Of a DNA stretch of 11,250 bases, positions 411 to 9,661 are shown in pieces (position 1 is the stretch's first letter; each line of letters begins with the position of its first letter). This DNA comes from a virus (lineage: Monodnaviria; Loebvirae; Hofneiviricota; Faserviricetes; Tubulavirales; Inoviridae). Both the position numbers and the translations under genes were made by a program. The stretch lies in the IMG/VR virus record IMGVR_UViG_2663763400_000001. One strand, written 5' to 3'. The notes under the pieces were generated by a model. The model was not told the origin of the DNA, did no database searches, and saw only the letters and a program-made list of their open reading frames with translations.

Positions 411-438
411 ATTTAACATAATATACATTATGCGCACC
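411..438 (-). other. dif: dif chromosome-dimer resolution site (XerC/XerD target), serving as the left prophage junction
   Basis: Plus strand reads ATTTAACATAATATACATTATGCGCACC, the exact reverse complement of the 28-bp E. coli dif sequence as I recall it (GGTGCGCATAA-TGTATA-TTATGTTAAAT). XerD arm 411-421, central region 422-427, XerC arm 428-438. Confidence 0.85.
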
Positions 439-565
439 AATGGTAAGGATGGCAGAATCTGGCGGGAATCGTTGACACTGGCCGTCAACTGGCTACTATC
501 GACAGTGATTCAAAATCATCCGTTTCTCCAAACGAATCAGAATCAAATGTCTGTCAGCAGTAAGT

Positions 566-597
566 GAACGGCCTGACCTCACCAATCAGGCCTGTTC
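566..597. repeat. Imperfect inverted repeat (about 11-bp stem, 9-nt loop) overlapping the stop codon of the 579..827 ORF
   Basis: GAACGGCCTGA (566-576), loop cctcaccaa, TCAGGCCTGTTC (586-597). The arms are complementary apart from one bulged base. No clear U-tract follows on either strand. Confidence 0.35.
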
Positions 598-788
598 ATC
601 CAGTTAGTTGGTAAATCTGTACCTGATACACGAGAATCAAACACCACTTCTTCAGTGCCATCACCATGATGCCGGATAATCTGGTAACCGGATTGCGGGT
701 TCTGGCTCTCAGCTTCATAAGCAGCCCGGAATGCTGGATCTTTAAGAAGCATCACTTTCAGCTCCTGATGTGTCATGAATTTTTCCAT
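579..788 (-). CDS. Hypothetical small protein (69 aa from ATG at 786-788; the longest ORF extends to 827, 82 aa)
   Basis: Minus-strand ORF with product MEKFMTHQELKVMLLKDPAFRAAYEAESQ... The ATG at 788 has a weak GGGG Shine-Dalgarno 6 nt upstream, while the ATG at 827 has none. No family recognised. Confidence 0.4.
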   Translation of the reverse strand: MEKFMTHQELKVMLLKDPAFRAAYEAESQNPQSGYQIIRHHGDGTEEVVFDSRVSGTDLPTNWMNRPDW

Positions 789-972
789 GATAAGCCCCGA
801 TGAATGCTGCCGCGCCGAATCAGCCATAACGCTGAAAATGGAAACTGTACGGCTTGGCCAACCCCGGACAGCAACAAAACAAGTTTTGTCACTGACCGGC
901 GTTATCTTTCAAAACAGACAGTTAACGATTTTTTGTCTGGTGTTTATGCGTGAAATTTCGTGCGTACGAAAT

Positions 973-1221
973 TCACCACCAATAAACAAACGGACGATGA
1001 CTGACCGGAAAAGCAATGCCGTCAGCATCATGACCACGCATTACCTGATTGAGAAGCCTTCTGACTTCACGACGCTCAGGCCTGGTCATCATCATATTGC
1101 GATACCAGGACGGCGATTTATCAAACCATCTGGCACAACTGGCAAAATGTGAACCTACACGACGATAAGACTTAAGGCGGCCACCGGGAAGTCGGTCACG
1201 CGCCTTATTTTTTACAGACAT
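973..1221 (-). CDS. Hypothetical small, strongly basic (Arg-rich) protein, 82 aa
   Basis: Minus-strand ORF immediately downstream of the secretin gene, preceded by an AGAGGA Shine-Dalgarno 6 nt upstream of the ATG at 1219-1221. It is co-oriented with the phage operon. The overlapping + strand ORF 775..1152 has no ribosome-binding site. Confidence 0.4.
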   Translation of the reverse strand: MSVKNKARDRLPGGRLKSYRRVGSHFASCARWFDKSPSWYRNMMMTRPERREVRRLLNQVMRGHDADGIAFPVSHRPFVYWW

Positions 1222-1309
1222 AATAAATCCTCTAAGTAACTGAATACCTAGAAGATGTCGTACTGTTCATACCCCATAAAAGTTAACGCCATAATAAAAA
1301 TCCATACAA

Positions 1310-2554
1310 TCAGTTCAGGTTGTCCCGGAACAGTTCACCGCTCCTCGCGGCGCTGCGGGGCGTCGCCCTGCTCCGGTCAACCTTTCTGACCTGAAGCATC
1401 ACCATAATATCAGTCTTGTTGCTTTCACTGGTACGGGAACCGAAGAAGCTCCAGCCGGAACTGGCCTTACTGTCTTTCTGTTCAGCAAGGCCACCAAGTA
1501 AAATAATATCACCATCTGCAAGGCTGACTTCGGTTGTTACATCACGCTTGATAAGGGTTGGCGAGTTATTGACGCCGGTTTCAGTGGTCACAAAGTTGGA
1601 AAGCTGCTGCTGAATCTTGAGATCCATTGTCCGACTTTTGATTGATGGCGTCACGTTAAACAAAACACCGCTGGAACGATATTCAACGGATTGCGTTGTC
1701 GTATTGTTATTCACCGTAACACTGCCCAGTACTGGCACATCAGAGCCGACTGAAAAAGACGCTGAGGCATTATTTTTTACCCGCAGTCGTGGCGCACTGA
1801 CAACAGTAAAACGACTGTCGGTTTTCAGCAGATTGAAAATGGCATCAATGGAGCCGGTTCGAATATTGATAAAATTATCCAGTCCGGCAGCACCAACTGA
1901 AATATTGAATTTATCAGACAGAATTTTAGCCGCTAAAAGAATGCCGGAGCCGTCAGACTGCGAGGTCTGAACCTCAAAAACATAACCAGAAACAACCACT
2001 TCATCACTCATCGTATCCAGCGAAGTGACCAGTGTTTTCAGGATGGCGATATCCTCTTTCGTACCATAATAAACCAGAATATCACCGGTTCGATTGATGT
2101 AGTTGCTTGCCCCTGATGAACCTTTTAGCGAATCGTCAGAAATCACGGCTCCACTGTTATTGAAGGAGCCTGAAACGTAGCCGCCAAGAATATCAGACAG
2201 GTAGGCAACAGAACGGTACTGAGGCGTATAAGTCCATGTATAACGTGGCTTAACCGGCTCTTTCGGCGTATAGGGCGCGATAAAATCAACACCCTTTTTC
2301 GTCCATATTCGAATGTTCATATTGCCAAGATAACGGGTTACAAATTCCCGTTCATCAATATCAGGTGTTAACCTGAATGTAATCATTCGTTCATCATTAA
2401 CAAGCTGTGGATCTAGCATATACGGGACTTTAAGCACCTCACTGTAAATAAGAGAAATAGCCTCCGGTAGCTTGACTTTATTTAATTCAAGCTCTGACCC
2501 TGCGAAAGCACATGAAGAAAATAGTAGCGTTAATGCGAGTAAAATCTTTTTCAT
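1310..2554 (-). CDS. Filamentous-phage secretin (pIV-like outer-membrane export channel), 414 aa
   Basis: N-terminal signal peptide MKKILLALTLLFSSCAFAGS. The C-terminal region has a secretin-like Gly/Ser-rich segment (DGDIILLGGLAEQKDSKASSGWSFFGSR...). The start codon overlaps the stop of the upstream Zot-like gene (TAATG at 2552-2556). Position matches gene IV of Ff phages. Confidence 0.85.
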   Translation of the reverse strand: MKKILLALTLLFSSCAFAGSELELNKVKLPEAISLIYSEVLKVPYMLDPQLVNDERMITFRLTPDIDEREFVTRYLGNMNIRIWTKKGVDFIAPYTPKEPVKPRYTWTYTPQYRSVAYLSDILGGYVSGSFNNSGAVISDDSLKGSSGASNYINRTGDILVYYGTKEDIAILKTLVTSLDTMSDEVVVSGYVFEVQTSQSDGSGILLAAKILSDKFNISVGAAGLDNFINIRTGSIDAIFNLLKTDSRFTVVSAPRLRVKNNASASFSVGSDVPVLGSVTVNNNTTTQSVEYRSSGVLFNVTPSIKSRTMDLKIQQQLSNFVTTETGVNNSPTLIKRDVTTEVSLADGDIILLGGLAEQKDSKASSGWSFFGSRTSESNKTDIMVMLQVRKVDRSRATPRSAARSGELFRDNLN

Positions 2555-6181: not shown

Positions 6182-6499
6182 TCAGCCTTTTATTTCAGTA
6201 ATGCCGCCATCTGATGAAATGTTATAAGTTACTCCTTCCCTCCCCTCCATTGACCAGACGCGAACATATACAGGTATCTGGACTAACTTACCGATAAAAT
6301 TATTTGCCTGATTCATTACACCGGCATTAACAAGAGCCTGAGATACACGAATAATAATCTGGTCTTGCTTAGTGCCGCCAAAACCATCAGGAATCTCTAA
6401 GCCAACACCAATTTCATTATAGTATCCCTGACCATTGACCTTATTACGCTGGCGAGCACCAAGCATTTTACCTTTTACAAAAAGACCATAATTAGACAT
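6182..6499 (-). CDS. Putative ssDNA-binding protein (gene V equivalent, by position and size), 105 aa
   Basis: Small ORF immediately downstream of the replication initiator gene, with a strong AAGGAG Shine-Dalgarno that overlaps the initiator stop codon. The assignment is positional; I could not confirm sequence similarity to Ff gV by eye. Confidence 0.45.
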   Translation of the reverse strand: MSNYGLFVKGKMLGARQRNKVNGQGYYNEIGVGLEIPDGFGGTKQDQIIIRVSQALVNAGVMNQANNFIGKLVQIPVYVRVWSMEGREGVTYNISSDGGITEIKG

Positions 6500-8280: not shown

Positions 8281-8703
8281 ATGAGTAGAAATAACGAAAC
8301 AAGCGGCGTTGAACTGGTTGTCGTGGGCGTATTTGCTTTCTGTCTGGCAGTTGTTGCCTGGCTAATGAAAACTTTCGATGTTGAATGGCAAACAGCGCTG
8401 GAAACTGCGCCTGGCCTGATAGTGTGGCTGCTTGTTGTCGGGGCGGGGATCTTTTTCGGGATCAAAATGGAAACAGGCCTTGTTCGCTGGGGTGCTCCAC
8501 TGGCGATCGCCCTTCTGATTCCGGTATTCAAACCAATTCTTAAGGAAGCTGCCGGAGTTCGTGAAACGGGTGGGCTGGTTTTCGATGATATGGTTTCGTG
8601 GTACGGAACTGGCTGGGGAATGTCGTTGATGTTTTTCGGAATTCTTATCATCGGATACGGGATGCTTTATTGGTGGCACAGAAGAAATTCATATTACTGG
8701 TAA
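8281..8703 (+). CDS. Hypothetical polytopic inner-membrane protein, 140 aa (cargo gene 1)
   Basis: About four hydrophobic helices (VELVVVGVFAFCLAVVAWLM, GLIVWLLVVGAGIFFGI, APLAIALLIPVF, MSLMFFGILIIGYGMLYWW). AAGGA ribosome-binding site 8 nt upstream. The antisense ORFs 8241..8651 and 8362..8679 are Pro/Ser/Thr/Arg-rich, typical of the reverse strand of a hydrophobic gene. Confidence 0.6.
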   Translation: MSRNNETSGVELVVVGVFAFCLAVVAWLMKTFDVEWQTALETAPGLIVWLLVVGAGIFFGIKMETGLVRWGAPLAIALLIPVFKPILKEAAGVRETGGLVFDDMVSWYGTGWGMSLMFFGILIIGYGMLYWWHRRNSYYW

Positions 8704-8731
8704 TCAATAAAACGTAGAAGAGAGGAAATAT

Positions 8732-9007
8732 ATGAAACTGAATCCTGAGAAATACAATAGAAATATCACCCTGCTATGTCCTGTGTGCGGAAATACAGAG
8801 ATGGAACACGAGGAAGAGTCTGAAGTCGTCAGATGTGTAGGCTGCGGGAAAGAATTCACTAATGATGAGTTAATCCAAGAAAACGGGGTGAGTATTGACG
8901 CCCATGTGGATGAGATAAAAGAAGAGTTAACAAAAGATATTCAAAAACAGTTTAACGACATGCTCAAAAAGGCATTTAAAGGAAGTAAAAATATAAGGAT
9001 TAAATAA
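8732..9007 (+). CDS. Hypothetical zinc-ribbon protein, 91 aa (cargo gene 2)
   Basis: CPVCG and CVGCG motifs 17 residues apart (CxxC-x17-CxxC), followed by an acidic/Lys-rich tail. AGAGGA Shine-Dalgarno upstream of the ATG at 8732. AT-rich codon usage. Confidence 0.6.
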   Translation: MKLNPEKYNRNITLLCPVCGNTEMEHEEESEVVRCVGCGKEFTNDELIQENGVSIDAHVDEIKEELTKDIQKQFNDMLKKAFKGSKNIRIK

Positions 9008-9486
9008 TGACAACAAGTGATGCCATCGCTTTAGCTGCGCTTGTAGTATCGATTTACACTATCATATCATCAGAAGTGAAGTCGAGAAAAAGTGATAGAG
9101 AACAAAAGGTTATAAAGGATGAGCAAGACAGATTACGTAAGTTGCTTCTGGAAAAAGAAACAAAGTCAGCAATTAATGAGATGAAGGCTGAGCTTGGTGC
9201 CCGCCTCGTAAAAATAGCCAAAAACAACTATAGACTCAAGATATTTAATAGAGGGAAAGTTGAGGCTAAAAATATAGAGATTCATTTCCCTGATAACGAT
9301 GGCAATGAATATCTTTCCATGCATGATGTAGAAGATAAATTTCCATATGAAGTATTACACCCGCAACATGGGATTGAAATTTTAGCGGGACTAAGCTTTG
9401 GAAGCAAAACTAAATACCGAATAAAACTCATATGGGATGACAATTATAAAAAAAGGAATGAAGAGGAGTTTTTCATTTCTATATAA
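9007..9486 (+). CDS. Hypothetical membrane-anchored protein with a charged coiled-coil-like segment, 159 aa (cargo gene 3)
   Basis: The start overlaps the upstream stop as TAATG (9005-9009). N-terminal hydrophobic anchor (AIALAALVVSIYTIIS), then a highly charged K/E/R-rich helical segment, then a C-terminal region rich in aromatic and beta-type residues. Visibly AT-rich. Confidence 0.6.
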   Translation: MTTSDAIALAALVVSIYTIISSEVKSRKSDREQKVIKDEQDRLRKLLLEKETKSAINEMKAELGARLVKIAKNNYRLKIFNRGKVEAKNIEIHFPDNDGNEYLSMHDVEDKFPYEVLHPQHGIEILAGLSFGSKTKYRIKLIWDDNYKKRNEEEFFISI

Positions 9487-9516
9487 ATTGGTTCGCACAA
9501 TGACGTTATGCTAAAG

Positions 9517-9553
9517 AGGCCGCTGCGGGATACGATTTTCGCAGCGGCCTTTT
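9517..9553 (+). terminator. Candidate intrinsic terminator of the + strand cargo operon, directly abutting the right junction site
   Basis: AGGCCGCTGCG (9517-9527), 12-nt loop, CGCAGCGGCCT (9540-9550), followed by TTT. It is flanked upstream by AAAG, so it could act in both directions. Confidence 0.5.
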
Positions 9554-9583
9554 CAACATAACGAGTCGTACATTATGCGCACC
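9552..9583 (-). other. Hybrid dif-like site forming the right prophage junction: dif XerC arm plus a phage-derived expanded central region and XerD-like arm
   Basis: In dif orientation it reads GGTGCGCATAA (perfect XerC arm, 9583-9573), then TGTACGACTCG (11 bp instead of the 6-bp TGTATA), then TTATGTTGAAA (9 of 11 identical to the dif XerD arm TTATGTTAAAT). It shares 15 contiguous nt with the true dif at 424-438. Confidence 0.65.
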
Positions 9584-9661
9584 AACATAAACCAAGGGAG
9601 AATCCAGTCGTTGGCGGTTCATGATTGTTCTGCTCATTAACAACGACCAAAACCCCATATC

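What the first reader, a model, noticed from the sequence alone, without database searches (positions are those of the whole stretch)
439..1309. Accessory region between the secretin gene and the left dif: small basic ORF, second small ORF and several palindromes
This 870-bp segment lies inside the element, but I recognise no core phage function in it. It holds a strongly Arg-rich 82-aa ORF (973..1221) with a near-consensus AGAGGA ribosome-binding site, and a second small ORF (579..827). Three inverted repeats are present: GTGAAATTTCG/CGAAATTCAC around 950-976, CAGACA/TGTCTG at 915-940, and GAACGGCCTGA/TCAGGCCTGTTC at 566-597. In Ff phages the equivalent intergenic segment carries the packaging-signal hairpin and replication origins. 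The hairpins here may be those cis elements, and the ORFs may be cargo or regulators.
Basis: partly seen in the sequence, partly recalled or inferred. Interest (0 to 1): 0.45.

Follow-up and report, generated by a model that had tools for sequence, protein, structure and literature searches.

The report
Leader-peptide-gated small gene in CUS-1 prophage
The segment is the accessory end of the known E. coli/Yersinia filamentous prophage CUS-1/YpfΦ; its Arg-rich 82-aa gene is real, belongs to a widespread uncharacterised family of mobile elements, and is preceded by an unannotated, deeply conserved 14-codon leader ORF and a hairpin that masks its ribosome-binding site.

Summary
The window is a CUS-1/YpfΦ-type filamentous prophage at dif in an ExPEC E. 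coli. Segment 439-1309 holds the homologues of YPO2280a and YPO2281, published as having "no predictable function".

Both ORFs are real genes on the - strand. The rival + strand ORF is not conserved. The 6-bp one is at chance level.

New findings:
- An unannotated 14-codon uORF (1292..1248, MALTFMGYEQYDIF*) lies upstream of the 82-aa gene. In 44 distinct leaders it ends in D-I-F-stop, with Tyr at -7 in 42 of them.
- Its last codons pair with the Shine-Dalgarno and start codon of the 82-aa gene. In 30 sequences 94.6% of cells are paired, with 18 compensatory cells.
- The 82-aa protein belongs to a family with 149 cluster representatives and no Pfam, NCBIfam or PADLOC match and no fold match. 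The family occurs in inoviruses, a lambdoid tail-gene moron slot, next to Tn3-family transposase genes and near defence or toxin-antitoxin genes.
- The CTX-type attP lies at the other prophage end.

Best reading: a translationally gated accessory gene plus a variable cargo slot, not an Ff-type origin/packaging region. The protein's function remains unknown.

The parts
411..438 (-). Perfect chromosomal-type dif (XerD arm 411-421, central 422-427, XerC arm 428-438). This is the intact site reconstituted at the 3' end of the prophage.
   Evidence: Exact 28/28 match, 0 expected by chance. The same orientation relative to the 82-aa gene is seen in 14 related loci. PMC4266046 states that YpfΦ insertion reconstitutes an intact dif at the 3' extremity.
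439..565 (-). Lineage-specific spacer between the second gene and the attP XerC arm. It contains weak hairpins at 495-560 and 462-498.
   Evidence: Identical in Y. pestis and in circular forms, where it directly abuts attP. Not alignable with the Brenneria L005 relative. Hairpin z-scores are -2.9 and -2.3.
566..597 (.). Imperfect palindrome GAACGGCCTGA/TCAGGCCTGTTC overlapping the stop codon and variable C-terminal tail of the second gene.
   Evidence: dG -11.2, z about -5 on both strands. Present only in near-identical CUS-1/Ypf relatives. A 2-nt indel in L033 changes the protein tail while the DNA of the palindrome is kept.
579..788 (-). orf2, 69 aa, acidic (pI 5.2). By position it is the YPO2281 homologue. 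Function unknown; optional cargo.
   Evidence: PHROG 6642, E 1e-53, residues 14-82 of the 82-aa mechanical ORF. Conserved core M-x-K-F-x-T-H-x-E-L...DGTEEVVFDS. dN/dS 0.10-0.22. Homologues at 40-47% identity lie downstream of the 82-aa gene in Xenorhabdus. No Pfam, NCBIfam, PADLOC or PDB match.
806..819 (-). Conserved motif TTCGGCGCGGCAGC just upstream of whichever cargo gene follows.
   Evidence: Kept in the window and in L005, L006, L028, L031, L033, L045 and L047, although the downstream gene differs. Role not tested.
860..903 (-). HP3: 17-bp imperfect hairpin CCGGTCAGTGACAAAAC-TT-GTTTTGTTGCTGTCCGG plus outer pairs. It is specific to the phage + strand.
   Evidence: Inverted repeat I1. DNA dG -14.2 on the - strand against -10.3 on the + strand. 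RNA dG -20 to -30 against -10 to -18 on the complement in all variants. Changes in L038 (C-G to U-A; G.G to A-U) and L031 (G.G to G-C) keep or improve pairing. It is the only intergenic element kept in all CUS-1-group relatives, including Pantoea L004, which has no phage genes. No U-tract follows.
915..940 (-).
   Evidence: z -0.6, 54 of 200 shuffles fold as well. Absent from L004, L031 and L047.
950..976 (.).
   Evidence: dG -8.0, z -2.9. Present in L006, L028, L033 and L045; partial in L005; absent in L004, L031 and L047.
973..1221 (-). orf1: 82-aa basic protein (14 R, 4 K, pI 11.5). By position it is the YPO2280a homologue. It belongs to a large uncharacterised family with C-terminal signature P-x-W-[WY]..T-R-P-x-R-R..G-x-D-x-D..F-P..K-P-x-x-Y-[YW]-W-COOH.
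1227..1256 (-). Leader hairpin. The 5' arm is the last codons and stop of the uORF (AUC UUC UAG G..). The 3' arm carries the Shine-Dalgarno AGAGGA (1233..1228). An outer helix pairs GACA with UGUC of the start region AUGUC.
   Evidence: RNA dG -14.1, z -5.8, 0 of 200 shuffles. On 30 distinct sequences, 94.6% of cells are paired against <=50% when the partner is slid. 18 cells have compensatory double changes and the covariation score is 0.307 against 0.226; 0 of 500 shuffles reach either value. Pair 16-28 occurs as GC, UA, CG and AU. A smaller set gave the same result.
1248..1292 (-). Unannotated uORF, 14 codons: MALTFMGYEQYDIF-stop. It starts 17 nt after the secretin stop codon.
   Evidence: 44 distinct leaders end in D-I-F-stop (43 D-I-F, 1 D-D-F) 17-29 nt before the main ATG. 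Tyr is at -7 in 42/44 and Gly at -8 in 32/44. There are 0/44 in-frame stops in the 9 upstream codons, against 23/44 and 21/44 in the other frames. It is present in inovirus, lambdoid, transposon and chromosomal contexts. Not annotated by PGAP.
9490..9584 (-). Outside the finding, but needed to read it: a CTX-type attP remnant. Site A is GGTTCGCACAA-TGACG-TTATGCTAAAG (+, 9490-9516). A G+C hairpin follows. Site B is a degenerate dif (-, 9557-9584) whose XerC arm is chromosomal.
   Evidence: The phage + strand folds into a forked hairpin, dG -30.5, z -8.0. Circular forms join site B directly to position 439. CUS-1Φ and YpfΦ are listed as CTXΦ-type in PMC4246890.

Best explanation
Segment 439-1309 is the dif-proximal accessory end of a CUS-1/YpfΦ filamentous prophage. 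It is not an Ff-type origin/packaging region. Read on the phage + strand (window - strand), it contains three units.

(1) A self-contained expression module.
- A 14-codon leader ORF (1292..1248) ends inside a hairpin (1256..1227).
- The other arm of that hairpin carries the Shine-Dalgarno of the 82-aa basic gene (1221..973), and an outer helix covers its AUG.
- Proposed mechanism: on the untranslated mRNA, the initiation region of the 82-aa gene is masked.
- A ribosome that translates the leader up to its stop codon melts the 5' arm and frees the Shine-Dalgarno and AUG 26 nt downstream.
- The 82-aa protein is therefore made only in step with leader translation, by coupling or re-initiation.
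- The invariant D-I-F-stop and Tyr(-7) suggest that the nascent peptide also slows termination, which would prolong the open state.

(2) A conserved + strand hairpin (860-903) of unknown role. It could stabilise the mRNA 3' end or act on single-stranded DNA.

(3) A variable cargo slot, here filled by the 69-aa acidic orf2 (788..579), followed by the reconstituted dif.

The 82-aa protein is a cytoplasmic small basic protein, one long helix plus an aromatic C-terminal tail. It belongs to a mobile, moron-like family shared by inoviruses, lambdoid phages, transposons and defence or toxin-antitoxin neighbourhoods. Its likeliest role is a host- or conflict-directed accessory function that must be kept at low or conditional levels.

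Shown: the genes are under purifying selection; the uORF is kept open and its peptide is conserved; the hairpin covaries; the contexts are as listed. Inferred: the direction of regulation, any stalling, and the protein's activity.
For: Identity of the element:
- 100% identical to E. coli SF-173 and 99.7% to UTI89.
- The 82-aa gene is 100% identical in Y. pestis, and the segment differs at only a few positions.
- The gene order is inovirus-like.
- The literature describes YPO2280a and YPO2281 as ORFs of no predictable function next to attR.

Genes are real.

uORF:
- Third-position variation in the G-Y-E-Q codons outside the hairpin.
- The frame is open in 44 of 44 leaders, while the other two frames carry stops in about half.
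- Present at about 35-45% protein identity of the main gene in marine metagenomes and in a lambda-like phage.

Hairpin:
- Covariation statistics; folding.
- In the lambdoid versions the geometry differs, but the same uORF codons pair with the AUG region.

Module autonomy:
- Classical intrinsic terminators follow the gene outside inoviruses.
- It lies next to Fic/Doc between tail genes I and J.
- It lies next to Tn3 transposase, a TOTE primase-helicase and HigBA.
- It is intact beside dif without any phage genes in Pantoea and Zobellella.

The same kind of control is documented for other bacterial genes (abstracts of PMC8092293 and PMC5574718, listed).
Against: - No expression data were available, so translation of the uORF and its effect on the 82-aa gene are inferred from conservation only.
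- The D-I-F-stop codons are also the complement of AUGUC and of the Shine-Dalgarno. The C/U variation seen there is wobble-compatible. The invariance of D-I-F could therefore reflect RNA pairing rather than peptide function. Only Tyr(-7), Gly(-8) and the open frame argue for peptide-level selection.
- The 44 leaders were collected by requiring D-[ID]-F-stop, so that motif's frequency is not an independent observation.
- Three loci depart from the pattern. Pectobacterium L027 lacks a DIF uORF. L083 and L106 lack it and have degenerate main genes.
- In L102 the D-I-F-stop reading frame has no in-frame start codon. This may be a sequencing error or a decayed copy.
- The protein has no detectable homologue of known function and no fold match, so the 'conflict/host-directed' role is a guess from context.
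- The role of HP3 is untested.
Confidence: 0.6

Rival explanations
1. Ff-type reading: the hairpins of the segment are the packaging signal and/or minus-strand origin of the phage, and the ORFs are incidental.
For: - The segment follows the secretin gene, as the Ff intergenic region follows gene IV.
- As + strand ssDNA it folds better than shuffles (z -5.0).
- HP3 is strand-specific with G.T pairs on the packaged strand and has no U-tract.
- Other inoviruses also carry long non-terminator hairpins after the 82-aa gene. One shows a compensatory change between L012 and L016.
Against: - Most of the segment is coding sequence under purifying selection.
- No Ff nick-site motif is present.
- HP1 and HP2 are missing in several functional-looking relatives.
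- HP3 is retained in Pantoea beside dif where no phage genes remain. That fits an mRNA element of the 82-aa gene at least as well.
- HP3 is absent from the Xenorhabdus and Morganella relatives.
Confidence: 0.15
2. orf1 and orf2 form a two-gene toxin-antitoxin or addiction pair: a basic toxin kept low by the leader, and an acidic neutraliser.
For: - Opposite charges (pI 11.5 against 5.2).
- The two genes co-occur in this order in the CUS-1/Ypf, Brenneria and Xenorhabdus lineages.
- Toxin-antitoxin modules occupy the same slot in Pectobacterium and lie next to homologues elsewhere.
- The N-terminus of orf2 (ELKxxLLKDPAFRAAYE) recalls the N-terminal segments of some Xre-type antitoxins. This is recollection, not a test.
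Against: - orf1 with its leader occurs intact without orf2 in Pantoea, Zobellella, Salmonella L028, Brenneria alni, Morganella, the lambdoid phage and all metagenome contexts.
- Neither protein matches any Pfam, NCBIfam or PADLOC model.
Confidence: 0.1
3. The 82-aa protein is an accessory factor of Xer/dif integration or of prophage maintenance at dif.
For: - In 14 of the 17 genome loci fetched with it, a dif site lies downstream in a fixed orientation, 32 bp to 2.4 kb away.
- It is more conserved than the morphogenesis genes.
- It persists intact beside dif in two genomes that have lost, or never had, the phage.
Against: - Homologues with the same leader lie in places with no dif-like site within the fetched flanks: a lambdoid tail cluster, Tn3-family transposons, defence islands and a chromosomal site between DUF520 and a TonB receptor.
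- CTX-type integration needs only XerC catalysis on the folded attP (PMC4246890).
- No match to any known Xer-associated domain.
Confidence: 0.05
4. The leader ORF is needed only as a ribosome track. Its amino-acid sequence is irrelevant, and D-I-F is a by-product of having to pair with AUGUC and AGAGGA.
For: - GACAU is complementary to AUGUC, and AUCUUCU to AGAGGAU.
- The variation seen at these codons is C/U, which G.U pairing tolerates.
Against: - Tyr at -7 in 42/44 leaders and Gly at -8 in 32/44 lie outside the hairpin and use both synonymous codons.
- The reading frame and the stop position relative to the D-I-F codons are fixed in all 44 leaders, although the loop, stem top and spacing (17-29 nt) vary.
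Confidence: 0.3

Closest known systems
YpfΦ (Yersinia pestis) / CUS-1 (E. coli O18:K1:H7) prophage, ORFs YPO2280a and YPO2281
   Same: - Same element. The 82-aa gene is 100% identical and orf2 97% identical in Y. pestis NCTC5923.
- Same position between the secretin gene and the intact dif.
- Published as two ORFs with no predictable function, sitting where CTXΦ carries ctxAB (PMC4266046).
   Different: Nothing differs in sequence. What is added here:
- the uORF and its hairpin;
- the corrected start of orf2;
- the breadth of the 82-aa family;
- the HP3 element.
The mapping of the names YPO2280a and YPO2281 to the two ORFs is by position, not by accession.
Leader-ORF translational coupling through a ribosome-binding-site-masking hairpin. 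Examples: tap/repA of plasmid R1 and repY/repZ of ColIb-P9 (from my own knowledge); the mgtA-region uORF of Salmonella (PMC8092293) and the iraD uORF (PMC5574718), as described in their abstracts.
   Same: - A short uORF with its own start.
- The uORF ends in or next to a stem that sequesters the Shine-Dalgarno and AUG of the main gene.
- The spacing is compatible with unmasking or re-initiation.
- The structure is supported by covariation.
   Different: - The peptide end (Y-x3-D-I-F-stop) is conserved across very distant hosts and element types.
- No antisense RNA or protein regulator has been identified here.
- No experiment exists.
Ribosome-arrest or sensor leader peptides that act at a stop codon (TnaC of E. 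coli; the MAGDIS uORF of mammalian AdoMetDC). From my own knowledge.
   Same: A short uORF whose C-terminal residues and stop position are invariant, and whose terminating ribosome would sit on a regulatory structure.
   Different: - No sequence relationship was tested or claimed.
- Stalling, and any ligand, are entirely hypothetical here.
Intergenic region of Ff phages (f1/M13/fd)
   Same: It lies downstream of the secretin gene. It contains at least one imperfect hairpin that is more stable on the packaged strand.
   Different: - The segment is mostly coding.
- No Ff nick-site motif is present.
- In this phage the segment runs into attP and divergent accessory genes, not into gene II.
CTXΦ accessory slot and CTX-type attP
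   Same: - Accessory genes lie between the assembly/secretion genes and the Xer site.
- Two inverted dif-like sites fold into a forked hairpin.
- CUS-1Φ and YpfΦ are listed as relatives of CTXΦ for integration.
   Different: - The attP sites lie outside the finding, at 9490-9584.
- The cargo is unrelated to ctxAB.
h1/h2 accessory genes of UPΦ filamentous phages (PMC7307601)
   Same: Two small genes of unknown function, in a dif-integrating enterobacterial inovirus, in a region that is non-coding in Ff-like phages.
   Different: - The authors found homology to YpfΦ only for genes II and V.
- A DNA search with a Lineavirus-like (Morganella) version of the module matched 116 E. coli genomes, all at 60-80% identity. 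The 12 sampled rows (72-73%) include known CUS-1 carriers.
- Homology of h1/h2 to orf1/orf2 was not tested directly.

Membership tests
CUS-1/YpfΦ prophage accessory ORFs (YPO2280a/YPO2281) | Near-identical sequence to the Y. pestis and E. coli K1-type prophage | tested here: met
   100% (SF-173) and 99.7% (UTI89) over 300-1400. The 82-aa gene is 100% and orf2 97% identical in Y. pestis NCTC5923.
CUS-1/YpfΦ prophage accessory ORFs (YPO2280a/YPO2281) | Two ORFs between the secretin gene and the intact dif (attR side) | tested here: met
   Order secretin 1310-2554, orf1 973-1221, orf2 579-788, dif 411-438. Matches the description in PMC4266046.
Leader-ORF/hairpin translational control | Short upstream ORF kept open, with a start codon, in independent lineages | tested here: met
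   In 44 distinct leaders there are 0/44 in-frame stops in the nine codons before the uORF stop, against 23/44 and 21/44 in the other frames. ATG, GTG or TTG starts give 9-18 codons.
Leader-ORF/hairpin translational control | Stem that pairs the uORF end with the Shine-Dalgarno/AUG of the main gene, supported by covariation | tested here: met
   94.6% paired in 30 sequences. 18 compensatory cells and covariation 0.307 against 0.226, with 0 of 500 shuffles reaching either. Slid controls <=50% paired. RNA z -5.8.
Leader-ORF/hairpin translational control | Expression of the main gene depends on translation of the leader | not testable with these tools
   Needs reporter fusions, toeprinting or ribosome profiling.
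Ribosome-arrest leader peptides | Conserved peptide residues near the C-terminus that are not explained by RNA constraints | tested here: inconclusive
   Tyr(-7) in 42/44 and Gly(-8) in 32/44 lie outside the stem. D-I-F itself is confounded with pairing to AUGUC and the Shine-Dalgarno.
Ribosome-arrest leader peptides | Demonstrated ribosome stalling | not testable with these tools
   No data.
Ff-type intergenic region (packaging signal, origins) | Non-coding segment between gene IV and gene II | tested here: not met
   Two genes under purifying selection plus a uORF occupy it. The segment is followed by attP and divergent accessory genes.
Ff-type intergenic region (packaging signal, origins) | pII nick-site sequence in a hairpin loop | tested here: not met
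   No match within 439-1309. The one 3-mismatch match in the window is at 9240 and is expected by chance. The true nick site of this Rep is unknown, so the test is weak.
Ff-type intergenic region (packaging signal, origins) | Imperfect hairpin specific to the packaged strand | tested here: met
   HP3 at 860-903: -14.2 against -10.3 kcal/mol as DNA and -25 against -15 as RNA. Function not tested.
CTX-type IMEX attP | Two dif-like sites in inverted orientation that fold into a forked hairpin on the + strand | tested here: met
   Found, but at 9490-9584, outside the finding (circular junction). Within the finding's neighbourhood only the XerC arm at 428-438 belongs to it.
Type II toxin-antitoxin pair (orf1/orf2) | Match to a known toxin or antitoxin family | tested here: not met
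   No Pfam, NCBIfam or PADLOC family for either protein.
Type II toxin-antitoxin pair (orf1/orf2) | Obligate co-occurrence of the two genes | tested here: not met
   orf1 occurs without orf2 in many loci.

The most novel reading that the evidence does not exclude
The Y-x3-D-I-F-stop leader is a new family of regulatory nascent peptides. It would hold the ribosome at the stop codon, possibly in response to a cellular or infection-related signal. That would switch on a so far unrecognised small basic effector that travels as a single-gene module between filamentous phages, tailed phages, transposons and defence islands. In CUS-1/YpfΦ this module, rather than a classical toxin, could be what links the prophage to host fitness in ExPEC and in plague bacilli.
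Probability: 0.2. Interest if true: 0.75.

Novelty: new member of a known kind. Interest (0 to 1): 0.5.

Why it matters
CUS-1 and YpfΦ are the filamentous prophages linked to the fitness of neonatal-meningitis and uropathogenic E. coli and of third-pandemic Y. pestis. The review of YpfΦ names the terminal ORFs of unknown function as the open question (PMC4266046).

This work gives three concrete handles on that question:
- One of those ORFs is the most conserved gene of the element across genera.
- It has a built-in translational gate that annotation pipelines miss.
- It belongs to a mobile family far wider than inoviruses.

The uORF/hairpin can be tested directly with a handful of point mutants. 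The conserved leader peptide is also a candidate for the small set of bacterial regulatory nascent peptides. Finally, the analysis shows where the integration element of this phage lies and which intergenic hairpin is worth testing for packaging or replication.

Tried and rejected
- Spurious-ORF hypothesis and the + strand ORF 775..1152: rejected by codon-level analysis.
- Start of orf2 at 827: rejected in favour of 788.
- Rfam: no family matches on 400-1400.
- DNA search of phage GenBank records with the segment: no match. A protein search there gave one weak hit.
- Ff nick-site motif: none in the segment.
- Leader hairpin as an intrinsic terminator: the scan flagged it, but the U-rich tail is not conserved in other lineages.
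- HP3 as an intrinsic terminator: no U-tract follows it.
- dif association as a general property of the family: rejected, because no dif-like site lies near the metagenomic homologues.
- IMG/VR scan with a leader DNA pattern: it returned only CUS-1-like copies and one Morganella-type copy, adding little diversity.
- Gonzalez et al. 2002 (PMC135385) could not be read.
Full report
**What the window is.**
- Bases 300-1400 are 100% identical to E. coli SF-173 and 99.7% to UTI89.
- In UTI89 the segment lies in a filamentous prophage between the fimbrial/SDR flank and hipBA. The gene order is replication protein II/X, ssDNA-binding protein, coat proteins, a pIII-like protein, DUF2523, Zot and secretin, all on the window's - strand.
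- The 82-aa gene is 100% identical in Y. pestis and orf2 is 97% identical. The segment differs from Y. pestis at only a few positions.
- This is therefore the CUS-1/YpfΦ phage. A 2014 review describes two ORFs next to attR, YPO2280a and YPO2281, with "no predictable functions". They occupy the place where CTXΦ carries ctxAB. The review names their function as an open question (PMC4266046).

**Ends of the element.**
- A perfect dif lies at 411-438 on the - strand.
- At the other end, 9557-9584 is a degenerate dif with an intact XerC arm. 9490-9516 is a second dif-like site in inverted orientation.
- The phage + strand there folds into a forked hairpin (dG -30.5, z -8.0). This is the CTX-type attP, in line with the published classification of CUS-1Φ and YpfΦ (PMC4246890).
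- Two circular forms join position 439 directly to the attP XerC arm. One is a 9,565-bp E. coli "plasmid", NZ_CP128883.1. The other is an IMG/VR contig with a terminal repeat.
- So the finding's segment is the stretch between the secretin gene and attP of the free phage. The integration cis element is not inside it.

**The observation.**
- The two ORFs, the AGAGGA and two of the three palindromes are as described.
- The 6-bp CAGACA/TGTCTG stem is not distinguishable from chance.
- The 82-aa ORF has 14 Arg and a pI of 11.5.
- The second ORF most likely starts at 788, giving 69 aa.

**Are the ORFs genes?**
- The 82-aa gene has exactly 82 codons, without indels, in 16 sequences from Yersinia, Pantoea, Brenneria, Xenorhabdus, a MAG and Zobellella.
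- Its pairwise dN/dS is 0.05-0.26 with saturated synonymous sites. There are 72 variable third positions against 45 and 39 at the other positions.
- The gene lies after the secretin gene in inoviruses with different replication modules.
- It is more conserved (59-79%) than the secretin (26-48%) or Zot (about 42-47%).
- orf2 has dN/dS 0.10-0.22 over its first 52 codons between divergent lineages, and homologues in Xenorhabdus.
- orf2 is replaced by other genes or by nothing in several relatives.

**The unannotated leader.**
- Aligning the upstream regions showed a micro-ORF on the - strand, 1292..1248, encoding MALTFMGYEQYDIF-stop.
- The same 9-18-codon ORF, ending in D-I-F-stop 17-29 nt before the main ATG, is present in these places:
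  - nearly all inovirus relatives;
  - two lambda-like phage contigs where the main protein is only about 45% identical (MYYYAEDIF, MNYFAEDIF);
  - about 25 metagenomic loci.
- Over 44 distinct leaders, Tyr is at -7 in 42 and Gly at -8 in 32.
- None has an in-frame stop in the nine codons before the uORF stop. About half have one in each of the other frames.
- Four loci depart from the pattern. Pectobacterium L027 lacks a DIF uORF. L083 and L106 lack it and have degenerate main genes, and L102 has the D-I-F-stop frame but no in-frame start codon.
- The leaders were collected by the D-[ID]-F-stop pattern. That motif's frequency is therefore not independent evidence. The open frame and Tyr(-7) are independent.

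**The hairpin.**
- The last uORF codons and the stop (AUC UUC UAG G) form the 5' arm of a stem. The 3' arm of that stem carries the Shine-Dalgarno.
- An outer helix pairs GACA (Asp-Ile codons) with UGUC of AUGUC (Met-Ser codons).
- As RNA the window's stem has dG -14.1 and z -5.8.
- On 30 distinct sequences 94.6% of cells are paired, against 50% or less when the partner is slid.
- 18 cells carry compensatory double changes and the covariation score is 0.307 against 0.226. No shuffle out of 500 reaches either value. One pair occurs as GC, UA, CG and AU (smaller set).
- In the lambdoid versions the geometry differs, but the same codons pair with the AUG region.
- This is the classical architecture of leader-ORF-dependent unmasking of a ribosome-binding site. 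The direction of control and any stalling are inferred.
- D-I-F is confounded with the need to pair with AUGUC and AGAGGA. Whether the peptide itself matters therefore rests on Tyr(-7), Gly(-8) and the fixed frame.

**The protein family.**
- A profile search found 149 cluster representatives at E<=1e-3. They share a C-terminal domain of about 50 residues that ends at the C-terminus.
- No member matches Pfam. There is no NCBIfam or PADLOC family. The only PHROG matches are families of unknown function.
- The subfamily with the N-terminus MS[VI]KN..DR..G[RK] carries the leader. The longer MSRTY-type members, in early regions of tailed phages, do not.
- Contexts of the leader-bearing subfamily:
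  - after the secretin gene in inoviruses;
  - between tail genes I and J of a lambdoid phage, next to Fic/Doc;
  - next to Tn3 transposases, a TOTE primase-helicase, HigBA and a group II intron;
  - alone between DUF520 and a TonB receptor.
- Outside inoviruses the gene is followed by classical intrinsic terminators.
- In Pantoea and Zobellella it sits intact beside dif with only host genes upstream.
- This is the behaviour of an autonomous moron-like module. It argues against a role specific to inovirus morphogenesis or to Xer recombination.

**Non-coding elements.**
- HP3 (860-903) is the only intergenic element kept in all CUS-1-group relatives.
- It is much more stable on the phage + strand, and its changes keep or improve pairing. 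No U-tract follows it.
- HP1 (950-976) is kept in only part of the group. The 566-597 palindrome lies in the variable tail of orf2.
- No Ff nick motif and no Rfam family was found.
- A packaging or minus-origin role for HP3 is possible but untested.

**Verdict.**
- The region is already known as two ORFs of unknown function in a known prophage.
The Ff-type interpretation is mostly not supported.
- The new content is a deeply conserved leader ORF and hairpin that gates a widespread, uncharacterised small basic protein, plus one conserved strand-specific hairpin.
- About 2% of complete E. coli genomes carry the module, often in two or more copies.

Noticed in passing
window 9490-9584: CTX-type attP remnant. 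Two inverted dif-like sites flank a G+C hairpin and fold as a forked hairpin on the phage + strand (z -8.0). The central region of site B is longer than in dif (TGTACGACTCG).
   Followed up: partly
window 8281-9486 (+ strand): The right-hand accessory ORFs are 140 aa with predicted membrane character, 91 aa with CxxC...CxxC motifs and a weak PADLOC PDC-S64 match (E 4e-7), and 159 aa. UTI89 instead carries a 369-aa hypothetical gene at that end. Both prophage ends are therefore variable cargo slots.
   Followed up: no
NZ_CP128883.1 (L110) and NZ_CP132684.1: A 9,565-bp circular 'untypable plasmid' of E. coli TUM14759 is the replicative form of this phage. A 248-kb Klebsiella pneumoniae plasmid carries two places with a 100% identical 82-aa gene.
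   Followed up: partly
E. coli complete genomes: 116 of 5,426 genomes carry the module. The median is 2 places per genome and the maximum is 5, consistent with tandem prophage arrays.
   Followed up: no
L042 2900-5700 (IMG/VR contig, lambda-like phage): A moron cluster is inserted between tail genes I and J. It holds a 306-aa unknown gene, a 74-aa ORF plus a Fic/Doc gene, a 76-aa ORF, then the DIF-leader and a 92-aa homologue followed by an intrinsic terminator.
   Followed up: partly
L004 4747-6402 (Pantoea piersonii) and L017 5435-6308 (Zobellella aerophila): An intact leader and 82-aa gene lie directly upstream of chromosomal dif (126 bp and 32 bp away) with no inovirus genes. In Pantoea the gene follows a WapI-like immunity gene. 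This is either a remnant of an irreversibly integrated phage or a mini-element.
   Followed up: partly
L012 and L016, about 6285-6345 (Xenorhabdus): A long hairpin without a U-tract follows the 82-aa gene. It differs between the two species by an A-to-G change in one arm and a T-to-C change in the other, which looks compensatory.
   Followed up: no
L027 4860-5240 (Pectobacterium parvum): The most divergent inovirus copy (79 aa, GTG start) lacks the DIF leader. It is followed by an Xre_MbcA_ParS_C antitoxin-type gene and a 312-aa ORF.
   Followed up: no
window about 909 versus Y. pestis L003: One Y. pestis copy has a 2-nt (AA) insertion between the 915-940 stem and HP3 that the window lacks. 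One Y. pestis strain has a frameshifted orf2.
   Followed up: no
window 1266-1310 (+ strand): Two overlapping sigma-70-like matches point away from the leader, antisense to the 3' end of the secretin gene. The region has more promoter-like matches than shuffles (6 against 1.8), but none was examined further.
   Followed up: no
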